Shown here piece after piece: positions 33,376 to 43,120 of a DNA stretch of 64,000 bases. Numbering within the stretch: position 1 is the stretch's first letter; each line of letters opens with the position of its first letter. Made by a program: the position numbers and the translations under genes. Below the pieces are notes generated by a model. It was not told where the DNA came from and did no database searches. It saw only the letters and a list, made by a program, of their open reading frames with translations. This DNA is from Candidatus Marinacidobacterales bacterium (lineage in GTDB: Bacteria > Acidobacteriota > Vicinamibacteria > Marinacidobacterales > SMYC01). The DNA lies in assembly GCA_965224085.1 (NCBI GenBank), contig CBDCYI010000011.1:1600001-1664000 (forward strand), in the 5' to 3' direction.

Positions 33376-34014
33376 TCAGGCAAAGGTTCGCATGAGCCCG
33401 ACGACGACGCCACGCAGCTCCACGGATTCCGCATCCACGATGATGGACTCATAGCGTTCGTTCGCTGGACGGAGCTCGACTTTGACTTCGTTCGGCGACG
33501 GCCCACGAGGCCCTTGAGGCCCTTGAGGATAGAAACGCTTGACCGTCGCTTCTCCATCCACAACCGCCACGACGGTCGCCCCCGCTTGCGCGGTCGAACT
33601 TTGCTGAACGACGAGCACGTCGCCTTCGCAGATGCCGTCGTCGATCATGCTATCCCCGGTGACCCGCAGGGCGAAGTGTTCTCCGCGCTTGAGGAGTGAT
33701 TCCGGAACGTCAATGCTGTCCGGAATCTCTTCCGCTTCCACGGGTGCGCCAGCCACGACCGTCCCAAGCAACGGCAGCGTCGCCGCCCGTGGGGGCTCTT
33801 CCCGCTCGATGATCTCTAGCGCGCGCTTCTGGTTCTTCCATGGTGACCGGATGAATCCCTTGCGGTGGAGCTGCAACAGATGTTTGCGGGCCGAGTTCAA
33901 GGAGGCGAACCCGAACTCCTGCCGGATCTCTTCGTAGGACGGGGGCATGCCGTGCTCCCGCCGATAGTCTTTGAGAAACTGCCAAACCGCTCGTTGCTTA
34001 GGTGTTAAATCCAT
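33376..34014 (-). CDS. lexA: SOS repressor LexA
   Basis: LTPKQ, PPSYEEI, A-G cleavage site (VAGAP), GDSM, TVKR. Confidence 0.95.
   Translation of the reverse strand: MDLTPKQRAVWQFLKDYRREHGMPPSYEEIRQEFGFASLNSARKHLLQLHRKGFIRSPWKNQKRALEIIEREEPPRAATLPLLGTVVAGAPVEAEEIPDSIDVPESLLKRGEHFALRVTGDSMIDDGICEGDVLVVQQSSTAQAGATVVAVVDGEATVKRFYPQGPQGPRGPSPNEVKVELRPANERYESIIVDAESVELRGVVVGLMRTFA
33500..33529. repeat. In-frame 9-bp tandem repeat in lexA
   Basis: GGCCCACGA GGCCCTTGA GGCCCTTGA, encoding PQGPQGPRGP. Confidence 0.75.
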
Positions 34015-34052
34015 GATGACACCAGGATAGGTGAAAGTAGAGTATAGCCCAA

Positions 34053-34099
34053 CTACTAAATGTAGTACCTAATTTATACATAACCCCAACATATTGTGT
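34053..34099 (-). promoter_or_regulatory. Tandem NrdR-like boxes flanking a DnaA-like box upstream of lexA
   Basis: CTACTAAATGTAGTAC (34053-68) and CCCCAACATATTGTGT (34084-99), 31 bp apart; TTATACATA (34074-82); minus-strand -10 TATACT at 34041-46. Confidence 0.65.
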
Positions 34100-34143
34100 T
34101 TATTGTTGCTGGAATTATTTCCTACACCTTGGGTATACCCCTC

Positions 34144-34968
34144 ATGCAACAGCAGCGGGATCCACGCATCTATCAAATCGCGACGTTGGCGGCACTGGTC
34201 GCCTACGGCGCCGTAAGCCTCGATCTCGAGATTCAACTTGCCGCCGCCGCCGTCATCGTCGCCACCGCTCTCGCCACGCAGTTTCTCTGCACAAAGCTCG
34301 TCTCACTTCCTCGCTTCGATCCGAATAGCGCACTCATTTCGTCGTTGTCACTTTGCCTGCTGCTCCGCACGGGCTCGATGAGCCTCGTCGTGGCCACGAC
34401 CGTGATAGCGATCGCGAGCAAGTTCTTCCTGAGAGTCGATGGCCGTCACGTGTTCAACCCGACCAATTTCGGCCTCGTCGCCGTGATGGCTTCGGTAGGC
34501 GGGATTTGGGTGTCGCCCGGCCAATGGGGGACCGGTGCCTTTTTCGCGTTCCTGCTCGTTGGTATCGGCGGGCTCGTTATCCATCGCGCTTCGAGGAGCG
34601 ACGTGACCTACGCCTTCGTCGCCTTCTACGCCGCGCTCGTTGTTGGCCGCGCGCTCTGGCTCGGAGACCCGCTCGCGATTCCGCTGCACCACCTCCAAAA
34701 CGGCGCTTTTCTTCTCTTCGCGTTTTTCATGATTTCCGATCCCAAGACAACGCCCGATTCCCGGGCGGGCCGGATCCTCTTCGCACTGATGGTCGCCCTC
34801 GGCGCCGGGTTCGTGCACTTCGTGCTCTTCGAGCCGAACGGTTTTCTCTGGTCTCTCGTTCTCTCCGCCCCGACAACGCCTCTAATCAACCGGCTGCTTC
34901 CGGGTGAGCGCTATGAATGGAGCCGCCGCCGCCCGAGCATGCGGCTATCTCAAAGGAGCTACGCATGA
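34144..34968 (+). CDS. Stand-alone NqrB/RnfD-family membrane protein
   Basis: DPRIYQI, ASKF, HVFNPTNFG, FMISDPKTTP. Confidence 0.85.
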   Translation: MQQQRDPRIYQIATLAALVAYGAVSLDLEIQLAAAAVIVATALATQFLCTKLVSLPRFDPNSALISSLSLCLLLRTGSMSLVVATTVIAIASKFFLRVDGRHVFNPTNFGLVAVMASVGGIWVSPGQWGTGAFFAFLLVGIGGLVIHRASRSDVTYAFVAFYAALVVGRALWLGDPLAIPLHHLQNGAFLLFAFFMISDPKTTPDSRAGRILFALMVALGAGFVHFVLFEPNGFLWSLVLSAPTTPLINRLLPGERYEWSRRRPSMRLSQRSYA

Positions 34969-36466
34969 AACGCTCGATGACCCTTCTCGGAATCTCTCTC
35001 GTTCTCGCAACGTGCTGGTCGAGCCCGACCGTGCGCGCCTTTTGCGGCTTCTACGTCGCCAAAGCCGACGCCAAGCTTTTCAACAAGGCGTCACAAGTCG
35101 TGCTCGTGCGCCACGACGACAAAACCGTCATCACGATGGCGAACGACTTCCAGGGCGACCCCACGGAGTTCGCCGTCGTCATCCCCGTGCCGACCTTCAT
35201 CGAGCGCGGACAGATCCACGTCACGAACAAAGCGCTCATCGATCACCTCGACGCCTTCACGGCGCCGCGGCTCGTCGAATATTTCGATCAAGATCCGTGC
35301 ATGCGCTTCGAACTTATGGAGCGCGCTATACCCTCAGCGGCTCAGATGCCGGGTGAAGCGGGACGCCGCAGCCGCGCGAAAGCGCTCGGCGTGAGCATCG
35401 AAGCTTCCTACACGGTCGGCGAGTACGACATCGTCATCCTCTCAGCGGAGCAATCCGACGGACTCTCGACTTGGCTAACAGACAACGGCTACCGCCTACC
35501 GCCCGGCGCGTCGCGTGTGCTCGCTAGCTATATCCGCCAGAACGTTCGTTTCTTCGTCGCCAAAGTCAATCTCGAAGAGCAGTCGCGCCTCGGGTTCAAC
35601 TATTTACGCCCGATACAAGTCGCTTTTGAGTCTCCGAAGTTCATGCTGCCCATCCGCCTCGGTACCCTCAACGCGAACGGGCCCCAGGATCTCCTCGTCT
35701 TCGCGCTCACGCAGAACGGACGCGTTGAGACGACCAACTATCGAACCGTCAAGCTTCCGAGCGGGATGGATCTGCCCGTCTTCGTGAAGCAAGAGTTCGG
35801 CGATTTCTACAAGGCCATGTTCACCGAGCAAGTGCGCAAGGAGAACATGCGCAGCGTGTTTCTCGAATATGCCTGGGACATGTCCTGGTGCGATCCGTGC
35901 GCCGCCGATCCTCTATCGGCGAACGAGCTCCGCGAGCTCGGTGTTTTCTGGCTCGACGGCGACAGAGGACGCGCTGTCAAGCGCGGTGCGCAAAACACGT
36001 TCGTGACGCGCCTCCACGTGCGCTACGACGGTGAGCACTTTCCTGAAGACCTCGTCTTCCAGGAGACGGCCGACCGGACCAACTTTCAAGGACGCTACGT
36101 TCTGCGCCACGCTTATGAAGGCGAGATTCGCTGCGAGCACGGTGGGACCTATCGACAAGAGCTCGCCACGCGTCACGAACGTGAAGCGCAAACCCTCGCC
36201 TCCATCACCGGCTGGGACATCCAGGACATCCGCCGAAAATGGACCTCGGCGGCAACGCACCCGAGCCCGGAAGCTGGTGGGAACGGCTGTGGAAGAAGAA
36301 TCGAAGGTACCCGGAGGCTCCGGCCCGGTCATCGCGCCGGAGCCGGACGGAATCTCCAGAGTTCTTTTCTCACCGGAAGGGGCTTCGCCAGGGCCACGAC
36401 GCGCCCTGCGGGGTCCCATCCGACCTAAAGACATGCCCGTATCGGGCGGATCGAGGTATGTCGTGA
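34965..36466 (+). CDS. DUF2330 secreted protein, frameshift near C-terminus (~36238)
   Basis: AFCGFYVAKAD, CDPC, TRLHVRY, NFQGRY; WWERLW tail lies in the shifted frame; true stop uncertain. Confidence 0.8.
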
Positions 36467-36510: not shown

Positions 36511-37812
36511 TTATGTGCGGATTCCTCCGCCAGGTGATCCGCGGGATGGCTTCGGATCGGAGGTTTCCAGGTGTTGGGCCCGCGGGTCGGTGCTCGCCTC
36601 AGTGAACACGTGTGCACTGGAGCCGGGTCCGGGATAGCGTCTCGCTCGTCTATTCCGTGATCGTGCTCCTAACTTGAGTGCTTCCTGTTGGTCGCACCAA
36701 TTGGAGAGCCAGTCAGCGAAGCCGCTCTCCGGTTTGGGTGGCTTCGGAGACGGCGGACGGTCGAAGATATCGGCGATGACTTCATCGCGCCAAGATTCGT
36801 CATTGTCGCCGCCGTCGCCGTGATTCTTGTCGCCGTCGTCTGGCCCGGTCACGATTTCGTGTGGAACTTCCTCCTCGACATCGTCGACATCCAAAGACTC
36901 AACGGGCTCGGGCTCGGGCTCGGGCTCCGGCTCGCTTACCAAGCGCGGCCGCTCGAACTTCAGATCGATGCCAACGGTGCCCGACATCGAGCAGACCTCC
37001 CGGTGGATGAGCCCGTGATGGATGCGGCATAGAGAAATCAAATTTCCCATCTCGTCGCTTCCCCGGTGGCTTCGATACTCGATGTGATGCACGTCGAGCA
37101 TCTTCCGCATCGTGCACGCTGGAAATTTGCACGCCCACCCGTCGCGATCGAGCACGGCGTTGCGCACCGACGCCGGAAGCCCTTTTTCGTCCTCCGTCTC
37201 ATGCGTCGAAGCGCCATTCTCGTTCGCTATGGGAAGGTGCGTGCCGAGGAGTTCCGCGAGGCACGCCTCCAGCACCTGCCACTTCTCGAGCTCGGCACCG
37301 CTCACACGTTCCGCGACCTCATAGGCGTCGTGCCACATCTCCAAAATCTCGACCGGCATCGAGATCGTGACCGAGGCGAACCCGCCGGATCCGCGTCCAT
37401 CATGACGCCGCACTTCCTTCTCGAGGTCACGATTCGACAGCACGCGAGCTTTCTCGAGCCACTCCTCCTCCGTGTCCGGAGTCGCCACCGCAACAATCTC
37501 CCTCGCCTTCGTCCAGCTCAGCTTACCGGCATCGAACTCCGCACGAATGGCCGGCAAGTTCTCGAGTCGCTCGGCGATGAAGACCAGGTACCAAGCCTTG
37601 CGCGGCTTGATGCCGACGAGCTCCATCGCGTAGTCACCCAAAGACGAAAACCCGCGTGTTCTATAAAGCCCCCGCCGATCGATCTCGAGCAACCAATAAG
37701 CGATGTTCCGCTCCTCGAGATGGTGGCGGGTGGCTGCTTCGATGAGATGGGACTCGATTTGTTCGACGGAAAGAGCGCGCTCGTGCCTGACCGATTGAGA
37801 GAGAGCGCTCAT
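36511..37812 (-). CDS. HNH endonuclease with DUF222-like N-terminal domain
   Basis: RDGWACKFPAC, HHI..SHRG.D..NLISLCRIHH; G.LSWTKAREI; acidic Pro-rich tail. Confidence 0.85.
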   Translation of the reverse strand: MSALSQSVRHERALSVEQIESHLIEAATRHHLEERNIAYWLLEIDRRGLYRTRGFSSLGDYAMELVGIKPRKAWYLVFIAERLENLPAIRAEFDAGKLSWTKAREIVAVATPDTEEEWLEKARVLSNRDLEKEVRRHDGRGSGGFASVTISMPVEILEMWHDAYEVAERVSGAELEKWQVLEACLAELLGTHLPIANENGASTHETEDEKGLPASVRNAVLDRDGWACKFPACTMRKMLDVHHIEYRSHRGSDEMGNLISLCRIHHGLIHREVCSMSGTVGIDLKFERPRLVSEPEPEPEPEPVESLDVDDVEEEVPHEIVTGPDDGDKNHGDGGDNDESWRDEVIADIFDRPPSPKPPKPESGFADWLSNWCDQQEALKLGARSRNRRARRYPGPGSSAHVFTEASTDPRAQHLETSDPKPSRGSPGGGIRT

Positions 37813-37891
37813 GAAAATTCCTCCTGGAATGCGGATTTGGGAGGACAGCGCACGCGGGTCCTGGAACAACTGACTCGCTATCCTAAGTGAA

Positions 37892-37920
37892 ACTATAGTG
37901 TATGTATAGAGCGTAGTCAA
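37892..37920 (-). promoter_or_regulatory. Near-consensus sigma70 promoter of the HNH gene
   Basis: TTGACT-17 bp-TATAGT on the minus strand. Confidence 0.7.
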
Positions 37921-40638: not shown

Positions 40639-40753
40639 CAACGCCTGGGCGCACCAAAGTCGCAAAAACGCGATAAGAAAAAAGCACGATCAGAGGTCTC
40701 TTTTCTTTCTTTGTTTCTCTTGCCCTTTAGGGTTGGCCCGCTTCAACCTTCAA

Positions 40754-40842
40754 ACATCCACAGCTCCTGCGGATAAGATGTGGAGAACCTGTGAATTCGT
40801 TGTTGACAACGAGAACACACAATATCTTGGGCCTGTGGATGA
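40754..40842. promoter_or_regulatory. Phased DnaA-box array
   Basis: TGTGGATAA-like 9-mers at 40768, 40779, 40790, 40801 and 40834 (11-bp register); one inverted box at 40754. Confidence 0.7.
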
Positions 40843-40889
40843 AAAAGCCACAAAAAGTAGTTGACCGCTTATTGCGGGGATGGCAGTAT
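40817..40889 (+). promoter_or_regulatory. Tandem NrdR-like boxes overlapping a sigma70 promoter
   Basis: ACACAATATCTTGGGC (40817) and CCACAAAAAGTAGTTG (40848), 31 bp apart; TTGACC(40861)-17 bp-CAGTAT. Confidence 0.65.
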
Positions 40890-40895
40890 TTTGTT

Positions 40896-41050
40896 CTCAA
40901 CGGATACCCAGACTTTGCGTTCGACGGAGGTGCGGCACTCATGAAGACGAACGGCATCCTTTGGGTATAGGGGACGGCGTCACGGCCGTTCAACTTCAAT
41001 GAGGCCCGATGGTTCCCCCCCATCGGACCGAGCTTAACTTCCTCCTCACG
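40896..41050 (+). ncRNA. Candidate structured RNA containing a 9-codon ORF (MKTNGILWV, 40941-40970)
   Basis: GGAGG SD at 40926; nested complementary segments; own promoter; boundaries inferred. Confidence 0.4.
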
Positions 41051-41086: not shown

Positions 41087-43120
41087 ATGCACGTCATCCA
41101 GCCAGCCAAAACCAAGCGCACTACCCCGTCGAGCCGGTCCGGAGCCCACGCTCTGAATGCTTCTGCCGACTCGAAAAGCCAGCTGAGAGGTAGAGCCCTC
41201 ATCTTCTGGGACCCCAAGCGGCCCGAACAAAAACTCGACGCCATCGATACCGACCAGATCACGCCTGCTACGGACTGCGTTTCGGAAAGCCTCGACTCGC
41301 TCGACGAGAAGTGGAAAATGGGCGCATTCCGTTACTTGATGCCGGATTTCCGCAAACGGGTGCACGCGGGCGAGACGTTCGTCGTCGCCGGCGCCCGTTT
41401 CGCCATCGGCTCCTCGCGCGAGATGAGCCCCGCCGGCCTCAACGCCGTTGCTGAAGAGGTCGGCCTTGAGATGGTCATCGTCTGCGGCGACAACATGGGT
41501 GACATCTTCCGACGCAACGCGTTCAATCTCGGGCTCGAAGTTGTGCAATCCCCCGAAGCCGTTGACGACGCGCGCGACGGGGACGAGCTTTCTTACGATC
41601 GCGAGACGCGTGAGCTCGTGAACATTACCCAAAAAAAGACCTACACACCGCTCCCGCTGACGGCGAAGGAAGACGAGATCCGCCGCTCCGGAGGGATCTT
41701 TGCCGTCGGCCGCCGCGAGTTCCCAGAATCGGTGCAGCGCCAACCGGTAATCGTTTGGCCCGACGAAGAGACCGCGCACGGGCTCACGACGACTGAGCAG
41801 ATCGTGTGGGCGCACCGCTTCGACAAAGACGCCAAGGTCGAGCCGGGTGAGACGTTGCGCGTCTATGCCGATCTTCTCCCTGCATCGGACGGCACCGCGC
41901 CGTTCGCGATCCATACCTTCAACCAAATCACGGGTGGCGACGCTATCTACCCGCGCCAGGCCGCCGTGGCCAATGATCATTTCGTCTTTACCGGTCGCGA
42001 TTCAGACGACAAGCAGACCTCGATCGGTCGCGCGTTCGCAAAGCTCCAAGGAATGGAGAAGCCCTATTACGCGACGCCAGGCGACGGGATCTTTCACTTC
42101 TACTTTCCCGAGCAAGGCCTAATTCTTCCCGGTCAGTTCGTTCCCGGCGCCGATTCACATAGCCGCGCCTATGGAGCCTATGGAGCGATTGGGATTGGGG
42201 TCGGCTCGACGACGCTCGGCTTCGGTTGGTCGACGGGTTACATCTATTTCACACTCGCGCGCGCGCGTCGCATCGCGTTTAAAGGCAAGCTTCAGCCTTG
42301 GGTCAGCGGGAAGGACATCGTGCTCGCGCTCCTCGCGCGTTGGGGCGCTGAGCAGTCTCAGGGCATGTCCGTCGAGTTCGTCGACGCAAACTTGGAGCTT
42401 CCTATCGCCTATCGCAACACGATCTGCAACATGATGGCGGAAGCCGAAGCGCAAAACGGTATCTTCGCGCCGGACGAGCTCACCTATGCGTGGTACCGCG
42501 ACCAAGGCGGGAGGACCGATCTCCCCTATCCGCCGATCCGTCCCGGTACTGACGCACATTACGCGATCGACGAGACGCTCGACCTCTCCGAGATCGTGCC
42601 CATGATTGCGAAACCTTATTCGCCTGGAAACGCCTTCGCCGCCGAGGACGTCGCGGGCGAGCGGCTCGCGTTCGACAAAGCCTACATCGGCTCATGCACA
42701 AACGGGAGCTATCAGGACCTCTTGCAGGCCGCGCTCGTGCTCTATATGGCGAGGCGGAACGGACGCGATCGCGCGGCGTGCGATTTCATCATCTTTCCGG
42801 GCTCGGGTGGTGTGAAACAGCAGATCGAGCGGCCCGAGCCTCGCCTCGGCGGAGAGTCGATCGCCGAGGTCTTGCGCGCTGCGGGAGGTCAGATCCGAGA
42901 CTCGTGGTGCGGCCCCTGCTTCGGCCAGGGCCCCGACGCTCTGACAGAGGGCGAAACGGCGATCACGTCGTTCAATCGGAACTGGCAAAATCGCATGGGC
43001 CTCGGCGGTCGGGGCTATCTCGCGAGCCCGGCCATCGTCGCCGCCTCGGCACTTCTCGGCTATATGGGCCCACCGAGCGAGCTCGGCCTCACGTGGAGCC
43101 CCGAAGAGTTTGGTTTGTGA
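41087..43120 (+). CDS. Aconitase/isopropylmalate-isomerase family enzyme, swivel domain first (LeuD-LeuC-like fusion)
   Basis: IDTDQITP, GSSRE, IF.RNA.N.G then DH, GIFH, DSH, GSCTNG, CGPCFG, NRN..RMG, YLASP. Confidence 0.88.
   Translation: MHVIQPAKTKRTTPSSRSGAHALNASADSKSQLRGRALIFWDPKRPEQKLDAIDTDQITPATDCVSESLDSLDEKWKMGAFRYLMPDFRKRVHAGETFVVAGARFAIGSSREMSPAGLNAVAEEVGLEMVIVCGDNMGDIFRRNAFNLGLEVVQSPEAVDDARDGDELSYDRETRELVNITQKKTYTPLPLTAKEDEIRRSGGIFAVGRREFPESVQRQPVIVWPDEETAHGLTTTEQIVWAHRFDKDAKVEPGETLRVYADLLPASDGTAPFAIHTFNQITGGDAIYPRQAAVANDHFVFTGRDSDDKQTSIGRAFAKLQGMEKPYYATPGDGIFHFYFPEQGLILPGQFVPGADSHSRAYGAYGAIGIGVGSTTLGFGWSTGYIYFTLARARRIAFKGKLQPWVSGKDIVLALLARWGAEQSQGMSVEFVDANLELPIAYRNTICNMMAEAEAQNGIFAPDELTYAWYRDQGGRTDLPYPPIRPGTDAHYAIDETLDLSEIVPMIAKPYSPGNAFAAEDVAGERLAFDKAYIGSCTNGSYQDLLQAALVLYMARRNGRDRAACDFIIFPGSGGVKQQIERPEPRLGGESIAEVLRAAGGQIRDSWCGPCFGQGPDALTEGETAITSFNRNWQNRMGLGGRGYLASPAIVAASALLGYMGPPSELGLTWSPEEFGL

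What the first reader, a model, noticed from the sequence alone, without database searches (positions are those of the whole stretch)
34041..34099. Composite NrdR-DnaA-NrdR operator in front of lexA, with geometry identical to the site at 40817
Seen, reading toward lexA: 16-bp box (34099-34084), 1 bp, TATGTATAA (one mismatch to TGTGNATAA), 5 bp, 16-bp box (34068-34053), then -10 TATACT. At 40817-40863 the layout is the same: box, 1 bp, TGTGGATGA, 5 bp, box, promoter. The two sites are not simple sequence duplicates, so the shared geometry suggests selection. Known: NrdR binds tandem acaCwAtATaTwGtg boxes about 31-32 bp apart, and NrdR and DnaA both act at E. coli nrdAB. Inference: a regulon placing the SOS repressor under dNTP-pool and replication-initiator control. 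I know of no description of this. The site could instead regulate the divergent RnfD-like operon.
Basis: partly seen in the sequence, partly recalled or inferred. Interest (0 to 1): 0.85.

Follow-up and report, generated by a model that had tools for sequence, protein, structure and literature searches.

The report
NrdR operator on a lexA promoter
Two binding boxes for NrdR, the repressor known for controlling DNA-building-block synthesis, sit against the promoter of a lexA gene in this soil/marine acidobacterium and its relatives, which suggests NrdR controls more than its textbook targets; the DnaA site proposed between the boxes is not supported.

Summary
Window 34053-34099 holds two 16-bp NrdR-type boxes with cores 31 bp apart (15-bp spacer), read toward lexA (33376-34014, minus strand). 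A matrix trained only on boxes upstream of the ribonucleotide reductase gene nrdJ in 29 relatives ranks the lexA boxes 5th and 8th of 6.87 million genome positions. The pair scores 37.5 bits; nrdJ's own pair scores 38.0. A pair of at least 17 bits sits at the same place in 15 of 22 lexA orthologues. nrdR is present in 31 of 31 genomes.

The middle "DnaA box" has 2 mismatches here and 3-5 in the other 14 orthologues, so it is not supported. The "twin" at 40817 precedes an aconitase-family gene, not nrd. There TGTGGATAA is kept only in two genera.

The comparative -35 and -10 are TTGGGC and TATCCT.

The same box pairs stand before OMP-icd-mdh, a BFN-nuclease gene and, more weakly, recA.

Best reading: a canonical NrdR operator recruited to non-RNR promoters in two acidobacterial families. 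No binding or expression data exist.

The parts
34084..34099 (-). NrdR box 1 (distal from lexA), ACACAATATGTTGGGG
   Evidence: 19.4 bits on the nrdJ-trained matrix, rank 5 of 6.87 M positions. Conserved in orthologues.
34069..34083 (-). 15-bp spacer between the boxes.
   Evidence: Spacer length is canonical for NrdR (PMC12051234 passages). Its sequence is not conserved: 2 mismatches to the DnaA 9-mer here, 3-5 in the 14 other orthologues.
34053..34068 (-). NrdR box 2 (proximal), GTACTACATTTAGTAG. It abuts the -35.
   Evidence: 18.1 bits, rank 8. It shares the core CTACATTTAG with nrdJ box 1. It is the best-conserved box in the alignment.
34047..34052 (-). Inferred -35 hexamer TTGGGC of the lexA promoter
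   Evidence: TTG is invariant at this place in 21 aligned orthologues. Not called by the consensus scan.
34030..34046 (-). Conserved direct repeat TATACT-N5-TTCACC filling the -35/-10 spacer; candidate LexA operator
   Evidence: Nearly invariant in 21 orthologues, including those without NrdR boxes. The pattern has 3 hits in the genome, one of them at the second lexA promoter. A 50%-identical lexA elsewhere has TTTCACCTA twice at an 11-bp period in the same place.
34024..34029 (-). Inferred -10 hexamer TATCCT. The ATG follows 9 nt later, so the mRNA is leaderless or nearly so.
   Evidence: TAnnnT is kept in all 21 aligned orthologues, with 6-11 nt to the ATG and no Shine-Dalgarno sequence. This is an inference; no transcript data.
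33376..34014 (-). lexA paralogue 1 (212 aa)
   Evidence: Pfam LexA_DNA_bind plus Peptidase_S24. NCBIfam lexA 183.8 bits against a cut-off of 110.95. Ala-Gly site, GDSM and Lys are visible in the translation.
34123..34137 (+). Imperfect palindrome TACACCTTGGGTATA just before the divergent gene; possible second LexA-type site
   Evidence: One of 2 genome sites for this pattern. Conserved in genera g1 and g7. Function inferred only.
34144..34968 (+). Divergent RnfD-like membrane protein gene, followed by DUF2330 (34917-36428)
   Evidence: Pfam NQR2_RnfD_RnfE and DUF2330. The divergent arrangement, with a 118-143 bp gap, holds in 15 of 17 f1 loci.
40817..40863 (+). Second NrdR box pair (31 bp) with TGTGGATGA in its spacer. 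Box 2 overlaps the -35 TTGACC (40861-40866); extended -10 TGGCAGTAT (40881-40889).
   Evidence: 28.2 bits, the 5th best pair in the genome. A pair of at least 17 bits in 16 of 29 usable orthologous loci. The promoter is inferred from conservation and was not called by the scan.
41087..43120 (+). Aconitase/IPM-dehydratase-family gene (fused small and large domains) downstream of the 40817 site
   Evidence: Pfam Aconitase. Below every NCBIfam equivalog cut-off.

Best explanation
Window 34053-34099 is a canonical two-box NrdR operator, with 16-bp boxes and a 15-bp spacer, placed directly against the -35 of the promoter of a lexA paralogue.

By analogy with characterised NrdR proteins, the dATP/ATP-loaded NrdR tetramer would bind both boxes and hinder RNA polymerase. 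When dNTP levels fall, NrdR would leave the DNA, and lexA would be derepressed together with nrdJ.

A second, independent operator lies between -35 and -10. It is a direct repeat, TATACT-N5-TTCACC, with an 11-bp period. It most likely serves LexA autoregulation, so the promoter would integrate two repressors.

The DnaA-like 9-mer in the spacer is not a functional part at lexA.

The site is one member of an enlarged NrdR regulon in two acidobacterial (Vicinamibacteria-type) families. This regulon also covers an aconitase-family gene, an OMP-icd-mdh operon, a BFN-nuclease gene and, more weakly, recA.

Shown: the sequence, its statistics, conservation, and co-occurrence with nrdR and with the nrdJ boxes. 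Inferred: binding by NrdR, repression, the effector logic, and the promoter and transcript start.
For: 1. Identity of the boxes. nrdJ is the only RNR gene found. It carries two boxes upstream in 29 of 30 relatives' loci, 26 of them at 32 bp. A matrix from those 39 distinct boxes ranks the lexA pair second in the genome, at 37.5 bits against 38.0 for nrdJ itself. The single boxes rank 5th and 8th of 6.87 M positions.

2. Spacing. The strict core pattern has 486 single hits. Pairs occur only at 31 bp (3) and 32 bp (1), plus one each at 25 and 36 bp, over the range 15-49 bp. PMC12051234 (passages read) reports binding to 14-17 bp spacers.

3. Conservation. A pair of at least 17 bits is found in 15 of 22 lexA orthologues, with box 1 starting 84-87 nt before the ATG in most of them, and box 2 always abuts TTG. 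The spacer sequence is free to vary, as expected for a two-box site.

4. Regulator. nrdR scores over its cut-off in 31 of 31 genomes.

5. Specificity across genomes. The strict pattern gives 36 hits against 4 for the reversed control in 31 genomes. 26 of the 36 lie at nrdJ, lexA, acn or the OMP operon. The others examined precede guaA, a phosphoribosyltransferase gene, tgt, and a TonB receptor. guaA and the phosphoribosyltransferase gene are nucleotide-related.

6. The boxes follow lexA where no RnfD-like gene is found in the locus (L024, 27.3 bits).
Against: There is no binding, footprint, transcript-start or expression evidence. No usable RNA run was found.

The simple sigma-70 scan did not call the proposed promoter, so the -35 and -10 rest on comparative alignment only.

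7 of 22 orthologues lack a pair of at least 17 bits. Two have nothing at all (genus g5), and three f2 loci keep only the proximal box well.

In family f1 the site lies in a 118-143 bp divergent region, so the RnfD-like operon could be the target or a co-target.

Relatives are not independent, so counts overstate the support.

Repressing a repressor gene at high dNTP has no obvious physiological logic.

Published work calls NrdR RNR-specific (PMC9110341 abstract and passages).
Confidence: 0.78

Rival explanations
1. Composite NrdR-DnaA-NrdR operator: DnaA binds the 9-mer between the boxes, so lexA would answer to both the dNTP pool and the replication initiator.
For: TATGTATAA lies 1 bp after box 1 and 5 bp before box 2, the same layout as TGTGGATGA at 40834-40842. 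At the aconitase site the 9-mer is within 1 mismatch in 6 of 6 loci of genera g1 and g6, and further DnaA-like words upstream are conserved there.
Against: At lexA the 9-mer has 2 mismatches to the strict consensus. None of the 14 other orthologues with a box pair comes closer than 3 mismatches, including the four same-genus genomes. At the aconitase site 0 of 10 loci outside g1 and g6 keep it. The shared layout follows from the fixed 15-bp NrdR spacer.
Confidence: 0.04
2. The box pair mainly controls the divergent RnfD-like/DUF2330 operon, and its closeness to lexA is incidental.
For: Box 1 ends 45 nt before the RnfD-like ATG. The divergent pairing with a short gap is conserved in 15 of 17 f1 loci.
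Against: The distance from the boxes to lexA is fixed and box 2 always abuts the lexA -35, while the distance to the other gene varies. L024 keeps a 27.3-bit pair with no RnfD-like gene in the locus. In L021 and L022 that gene is 840-1044 bp away, yet the proximal box stays at lexA. Genus g5 keeps the divergent gene without any boxes.
Confidence: 0.1
3. The boxes are bound by a protein other than NrdR, for example LexA itself or an unknown factor that also acts at nrdJ.
For: No binding data exist. Most targets are not RNR genes, which is unusual for NrdR.
Against: The boxes fit the NrdR box consensus quoted in the finding and the 15-16 bp spacer rule. They occur upstream of nrdJ in all three families, including f3, whose LexA-type gene is different and carries a different palindrome in its promoter. 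A separate LexA-type direct repeat occupies the lexA -35/-10 spacer. One nrdR per genome scores over the cut-off.
Confidence: 0.06
4. Chance resemblance in an AT-rich intergenic region.
For: The region is AT-rich (GC about 0.38) and the motif is AT-rich.
Against: 5000 shuffles of the region reached at most 17.4 bits against 37.5 observed. About 5e-5 such pairs are expected genome-wide. The site is conserved in position across two families.
Confidence: 0.01

Closest known systems
NrdR operators of ribonucleotide reductase operons (Streptomyces coelicolor, E. coli, Listeria; Rozman Grinberg et al. 2022, PMC9110341; PMC12051234)
   Same: Two partially palindromic 16-bp boxes, a 15-16 bp spacer, a position at or overlapping the promoter, nrdR present, and the same boxes at the genome's own RNR gene.
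   Different: The gene served is lexA, not an RNR. The operator is combined with a second, LexA-type operator inside the same promoter.
NrdR and topA in Pseudomonas aeruginosa (Crespo et al. 2015, PMC4409342)
   Same: A non-RNR gene proposed as a direct NrdR target (passages read).
   Different: topA has a single box and NrdR appears to activate it. Later authors doubt the mechanism because NrdR needs two boxes (PMC12051234 passage). Here there are two full boxes at canonical spacing, and the pair is conserved in position in 15 of 22 lexA orthologues.
E. coli nrdAB promoter with DnaA boxes plus NrdR boxes
   Same: The idea of DnaA and NrdR sites in one control region. The aconitase site in genera g1 and g6 has conserved DnaA-like words near and inside the NrdR pair.
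   Different: At lexA the DnaA-like word is not conserved. Neither site here belongs to an nrd gene.
Direct-repeat LexA boxes of the GTTC-N7-GTTC type (Alphaproteobacteria, Acidobacterium capsulatum; recalled from Mazon et al. 2006, not read)
   Same: An 11-bp-period direct repeat inside the lexA promoter. Two class relatives with 46-47% identical LexA carry GTTCGCC-N4-GTTTGC at that place.
   Different: The repeat words here are TAYACY and TWCACC, not GTTC. The regulon is undefined: the relaxed pattern is not enriched over other spacings.

Membership tests
NrdR operator (NrdR box pair) | 16-bp partially palindromic boxes like those upstream of the organism's RNR genes | tested here: met
   A matrix built from 39 nrdJ-upstream boxes scores the lexA boxes 19.4 and 18.1 bits, ranks 5 and 8 genome-wide.
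NrdR operator (NrdR box pair) | Two boxes separated by a 14-17 bp spacer (or 24-27 bp) | tested here: met
   15-bp spacer, 31 bp core to core. The rule is taken from PMC12051234 passages.
NrdR operator (NrdR box pair) | nrdR gene present in the genome | tested here: met
   TIGR00244 scores 191.9-194.5 bits against a cut-off of 124.65, full length. Present in 31 of 31 relatives.
NrdR operator (NrdR box pair) | Position at or overlapping the promoter | tested here: inconclusive
   Box 2 abuts a conserved TTG, and 17-18 bp further on there is a conserved TAnnnT. The consensus scan did not call this promoter, and there are no transcript data.
NrdR operator (NrdR box pair) | Conserved upstream of orthologous genes | tested here: met
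   15 of 22 lexA orthologues have a pair of at least 17 bits at the same place: 13 of 17 in f1 and 2 of 5 in f2.
NrdR operator (NrdR box pair) | The regulated gene encodes a ribonucleotide reductase (NrdR is described as RNR-specific) | tested here: not met
   The gene is lexA. This is the respect in which the site departs from the described family.
NrdR operator (NrdR box pair) | Binding by dATP/ATP-loaded NrdR and repression | not testable with these tools
   Needs EMSA, footprinting or reporter assays.
DnaA box | 9-mer within 1 mismatch of the strict consensus | tested here: not met
   The lexA spacer has 2 mismatches. The aconitase site has 1 mismatch.
DnaA box | Conserved in orthologous regions | tested here: not met
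   lexA: 0 of 14 other orthologues within 2 mismatches. Aconitase site: 6 of 6 in g1 and g6, and 0 of 10 elsewhere.
LexA operator (direct-repeat type) | Repeat element inside the lexA promoter, shared with other LexA-controlled genes | tested here: inconclusive
   The element is present and conserved at lexA1 and at the lexA2 promoter. A similar word lies before an HNH gene at window 37887. The relaxed pattern gives 8 hits, no more than at other spacings, and the recA promoter shows no clear copy.

The most novel reading that the evidence does not exclude
In two families of Vicinamibacteria-type Acidobacteriota, NrdR is no longer an RNR-specific repressor. It would be a small global regulator that couples the dNTP pool to several functions: the SOS master genes (a lexA paralogue and recA), the NADPH-yielding aconitase and isocitrate dehydrogenase steps, a nuclease/ParA operon and, in single lineages, purine salvage, GMP synthesis and a TonB-receptor gene behind a possible B12-riboswitch leader (not tested against Rfam). 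All of these would use canonical two-box operators.
Probability: 0.45. Interest if true: 0.75.

Novelty: new variant of a known kind. Interest (0 to 1): 0.62.

Why it matters
NrdR is treated in the literature I read as a repressor dedicated to ribonucleotide reductase genes. I read the abstract and passages of PMC9110341, and passages of PMC4409342 and PMC12051234. The one proposed exception, topA, has a single box and is disputed.

A clade with full two-box operators at conserved positions before lexA, and before central-metabolism and DNA-metabolism genes, would show that the NrdR nucleotide sensor can be rewired into a wider regulon. It would also give a direct, testable link between dNTP supply and the DNA-damage circuit.

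I found no paper describing this. Searches gave no listed title or abstract reporting NrdR boxes at lexA, recA or TCA genes. Only listings were seen for most hits. Rodionov and Gelfand 2005 and the RegPrecise tables could not be read, and supplements are closed.

Tried and rejected
oriC idea for the DnaA-like cluster at 40746-40842: rejected. The cumulative GC skew of contig C11 peaks at 1.199 Mb and shows no switch at the window (1.600-1.664 Mb). No cluster of four or more DnaA boxes (up to 1 mismatch) within 300 bp exists anywhere in the genome.

Rfam: no family reached its gathering score in the whole window, so no known riboswitch explains the long aconitase leader.

The full 19-nt lexA spacer element has no other close copy in the genome. 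The nearest is a repeated 4-mismatch sequence in 4 copies. The relaxed direct-repeat pattern is not enriched over other spacings, so I could not define a LexA regulon.

High-scoring NrdR-like pairs at non-canonical distances (C4:904191 at 25 bp, C5:1980379 at 36 bp, C4:1208723 at 34 bp) lie in low-GC or transposase-associated DNA. By the published spacer rule they should bind poorly, so I did not count them. C9:107178 sits inside an inverted-repeat insertion.

RNA evidence: the look-up of sequencing runs found only contig-level holders and small-share metatranscriptome runs. Contigs cannot show transcript starts.

The consensus promoter scans did not call the promoters I propose.

The protein database searches (search for homologous proteins, the search of protein representatives), structure prediction and complex prediction were not used, because the question concerns DNA sites.

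Full report
Organism and setting. The window is contig C11:1600001-1664000 of a 6.87-Mb, 60% GC genome. Close relatives found with the LexA protein are MAGs titled Acidobacteria/Acidobacteriota, Vicinamibacteria or Candidatus Marinacidobacterales. The gene at 33376-34014 (minus strand) is a LexA: it has Pfam LexA_DNA_bind plus Peptidase_S24, it exceeds the NCBIfam lexA cut-off, and the Ala-Gly, GDSM and Lys motifs are visible. It diverges from an RnfD-like gene (34144-34968) followed by DUF2330. The genome has a second LexA (C9:246281-246877, 38-39% identical), which also exceeds the lexA cut-off. That gene heads a DUF3467 gene and a Y-family-polymerase gene. The window's LexA type was found only in families f1 and f2, plus two 46-47% identical matches in f9, among 121 genomes sampled from the class.

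The observation. The sequence is exactly as described. There are two 16-bp boxes at 34099-34084 and 34068-34053, with cores 31 bp apart. The 15-bp spacer contains TATGTATAA. The same layout occurs at 40817-40863.

What the boxes are. The genome has nrdR. It has a single RNR gene, a 954-aa nrdJ-like ORF on C4; no nrdB or nrdD was found. Upstream of nrdJ lie two boxes 32 bp apart, and the first shares the core CTACATTTAG with the proximal lexA box. This pair is conserved in 29 of 30 relatives' loci in all three families, 26 of them at 32 bp; the one failure had only 227 nt of upstream sequence.

I built a symmetrised matrix from the 39 distinct nrdJ boxes only. No lexA, aconitase or other sites were used. 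I then scanned the whole genome with it. The best pair is nrdJ (38.0 bits), the second is lexA (37.5 bits, 31 bp), and the aconitase site is fifth (28.2 bits). The lexA boxes rank 5th and 8th among 6.87 million positions. Only 9 positions reach 18 bits, which gives about 5e-5 expected pairs at 30-33 bp. 5000 shuffles of the intergenic region reached at most 17.4 bits. A strict core pattern derived from the sites gave pairs only at 31 bp (3) and 32 bp (1), plus one each at 25 and 36 bp, across all distances from 15 to 49 bp. The 15-16 bp spacer is the canonical NrdR arrangement (PMC12051234 and PMC13584703, abstracts and passages).

Conservation. Among 22 lexA orthologues (57-91% protein identity by tblastn), 15 have a pair of at least 17 bits: 13 of 17 in f1 and 2 of 5 in f2. 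In most of these box 1 starts 84-87 nt before the ATG. Two loci of genus g5 have no boxes. L017 keeps one strong box. L018 and three f2 loci score 11.6-14.5 bits, with the proximal box better kept.

An alignment of 21 orthologues was made; L019 was left out because its match starts at residue 20 and the gene has an internal TGA. The alignment shows these conserved columns in order: the proximal box core, TTG, a nearly invariant TATACYCTACTTTCACC, TAnnnT, and then the ATG 6-11 nt later. I therefore read TTGGGC (34052-34047) as the -35 and TATCCT (34029-34024) as the -10, with a leaderless or near-leaderless mRNA. The consensus scan did not call this promoter, so the assignment is comparative inference. 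nrdR is present in 31 of 31 genomes.

The DnaA proposal. At lexA the 9-mer is 2 mismatches from the strict consensus. In the other 14 orthologues with a box pair, the best match in the spacer has 3-5 mismatches. The four same-genus genomes have completely different spacers, which also shows that unconstrained sequence has diverged at this depth.

At the aconitase site the picture differs. TGTGGATAA is within 1 mismatch in 6 of 6 loci of genera g1 and g6, although box 1 itself varies among them, and in 0 of 10 other loci. Further DnaA-like words upstream (40746-40788) are conserved in those genera. The region is not at a GC-skew switch. So a DnaA-like element may be real at the aconitase promoter in two genera, but it is not part of the lexA site.

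Which gene is controlled. In f1 the lexA/RnfD-like gap is 118-143 bp in 15 of 17 loci, so both promoters are within reach. The boxes keep a fixed register with the lexA promoter. In L024 a 27.3-bit pair persists with no RnfD-like gene in the locus. In L021 and L022 that gene is 840-1044 bp away while the proximal box stays at lexA. lexA is thus the primary target, and co-control of the divergent operon in f1 remains possible.

LexA's own site. The direct repeat TAYACY-N5-TWCACC has three genome hits: lexA1, the promoter of lexA2 (again directly before a TAnnnT), and one unexplained site. A 50%-identical lexA in a MAG labelled Deltaproteobacteria carries TTTCACCTA twice at an 11-bp period between its -35 and -10. 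Two f9 genomes carry a GTTC-type direct repeat at that place. This resembles the direct-repeat LexA box recalled for Alphaproteobacteria and Acidobacterium capsulatum; that paper was not read. Family f3 LexA-type genes have a different palindrome, yet f3 nrdJ keeps NrdR boxes. Together these points argue that LexA does not bind the NrdR-type boxes.

A wider regulon. The same two-box architecture, with a box overlapping the -35 and/or the -10, is found at several other promoters:
- Aconitase-family gene at 41087: 16 of 29 usable loci reach at least 17 bits, 15 of 18 in f1 and 0 of 6 in f3.
- OMP/NADP-isocitrate dehydrogenase/malate dehydrogenase operon at C5:958318: 13 of 21 usable loci reach at least 17 bits. 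The proximal box ends in a -35-like TTGAC/TTGAG (once CCTGAC) in 19 of 21, which lowers matrix scores. L118 and L128 are the same site.
- BFN-nuclease gene followed by a ParA-type gene at C11:1280269: 21 of 23 f1 and f2 loci, and 0 of 6 in f3.
- recA, more weakly: 12.5 bits in this genome; 10 of 22 f1 and f2 loci reach at least 17 bits; 0 of 6 in f3. The position relative to the promoter is conserved in a 21-locus alignment, from which L176 and L188 were left out.

In 31 genomes the strict pattern gave 36 sites against 4 for the reversed control. 26 of the 36 lie at nrdJ, lexA, acn or the OMP operon. Seven of the remaining ten were fetched. They precede tgt (two genomes), a phosphoribosyltransferase gene (two genomes; the ORF looks disrupted in one, G021), guaA, a HARE-HTH protein gene, and a TonB-dependent receptor whose leader looks riboswitch-like by eye but was not tested. 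The nucleotide-related members (guaA, the phosphoribosyltransferase gene) fit NrdR as the regulator.

One possible logic, which is inference only: aconitase and NADP-isocitrate dehydrogenase supply NADPH, the ultimate reductant for ribonucleotide reduction, and RecA and LexA are needed when forks stall for lack of dNTPs.

Comparison with what is known. The site works like, and meets the sequence-level criteria of, an NrdR operator. It departs from the described family in its target. The papers I read call NrdR RNR-specific (PMC9110341). Crespo et al. state that all described targets were RNR genes before topA (PMC4409342). The topA case has one box and is questioned (PMC12051234). In P. aeruginosa, lexA and recA changed in an nrdR mutant, but those authors attributed this to indirect effects because no boxes were present. 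Searches listed no paper that reports NrdR boxes at lexA, recA or TCA genes. Supplements, RegPrecise tables and the 2005 Trends in Genetics paper could not be read, so an earlier prediction for another taxon cannot be excluded.

Verdict. The best explanation is a canonical NrdR operator recruited to a lexA promoter, next to a LexA-type operator, as part of an enlarged clade-specific NrdR regulon (confidence about 0.78). The DnaA component at lexA is rejected. All functional statements are inferences from sequence and comparative evidence.

Noticed in passing
window 40746-40842: Array of DnaA-box-like words (ATCCACA, TGCGGATAA, TGTGGAGAA, TGTGAATTC, TGTGGATGA) upstream of and inside the aconitase NrdR pair. 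It is conserved in genera g1 and g6 only, and it is not at a GC-skew switch.
   Followed up: partly
window 40941-40970: A 9-codon upstream ORF (MKTNGILWV) with a GGAGG 8-9 nt before it, in the roughly 190-nt aconitase leader. The peptide is kept as MxTNGILWV in 5 of 6 aligned g1/g6 loci; in one the stop is lost. No Rfam family matched the leader.
   Followed up: partly
window 37887-37902 (minus strand): TACACTATAGTTTCAC, close to the lexA spacer repeat, lies in a promoter-like context before an HNH-domain gene (36511-37812). It is a possible LexA target. A near-identical word lies at G000 C4:1495866, with no ORF of 80 aa or more starting in the next 400-500 nt.
   Followed up: partly
G000 C4, about 785790-785840 (upstream of recA): Weak NrdR-like box pair at 31 bp flanking the recA -35 and overlapping its extended -10. 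Its position is conserved in f1 and f2 and it is absent in f3.
   Followed up: partly
G000 C11:1280269-1280316: NrdR-type pair at 32 bp coinciding with the -35 and -10 of a BFN-nuclease gene that is followed by a ParA-type ATPase gene. 21 of 23 f1/f2 loci keep it.
   Followed up: yes
G000 C5:958318-958358: NrdR-type pair at 31 bp before an outer-membrane-protein gene followed by NADP-isocitrate dehydrogenase and malate dehydrogenase genes. Conserved in f1 and f2.
   Followed up: yes
L159, L165 (tgt); L160, L164 (phosphoribosyltransferase); L163 (guaA); L162 (TonB receptor): Lineage-specific strict NrdR pairs in relatives before nucleotide-related genes. One precedes a TonB receptor whose leader looks riboswitch-like by eye (not tested against Rfam).
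   Followed up: partly
L028-L032 (family f3 LexA-type genes): A palindrome CAGACAnATGTCTG overlaps the -10 of a third LexA type. It is a different candidate LexA box within the same order.
   Followed up: no
G000, 14 copies (e.g. C4:5318, C5:227915, C11:182604): A repeated element of about 110 bp whose two ends score as weak NrdR-like boxes 79 bp apart. It is probably a small mobile or repeated element, not an operator.
   Followed up: no
G000 C4:904191 and C5:1980379: Very high-scoring NrdR-like box pairs at non-canonical distances (25 and 36 bp) in low-GC, foreign-looking DNA. The first precedes a small ORF.
   Followed up: partly
window 34123-34137: Imperfect palindrome TACACCTTGGGTATA directly before the RnfD-like gene, built from the same half-site words as the lexA direct repeat. 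Conserved in g1 and g7.
   Followed up: partly
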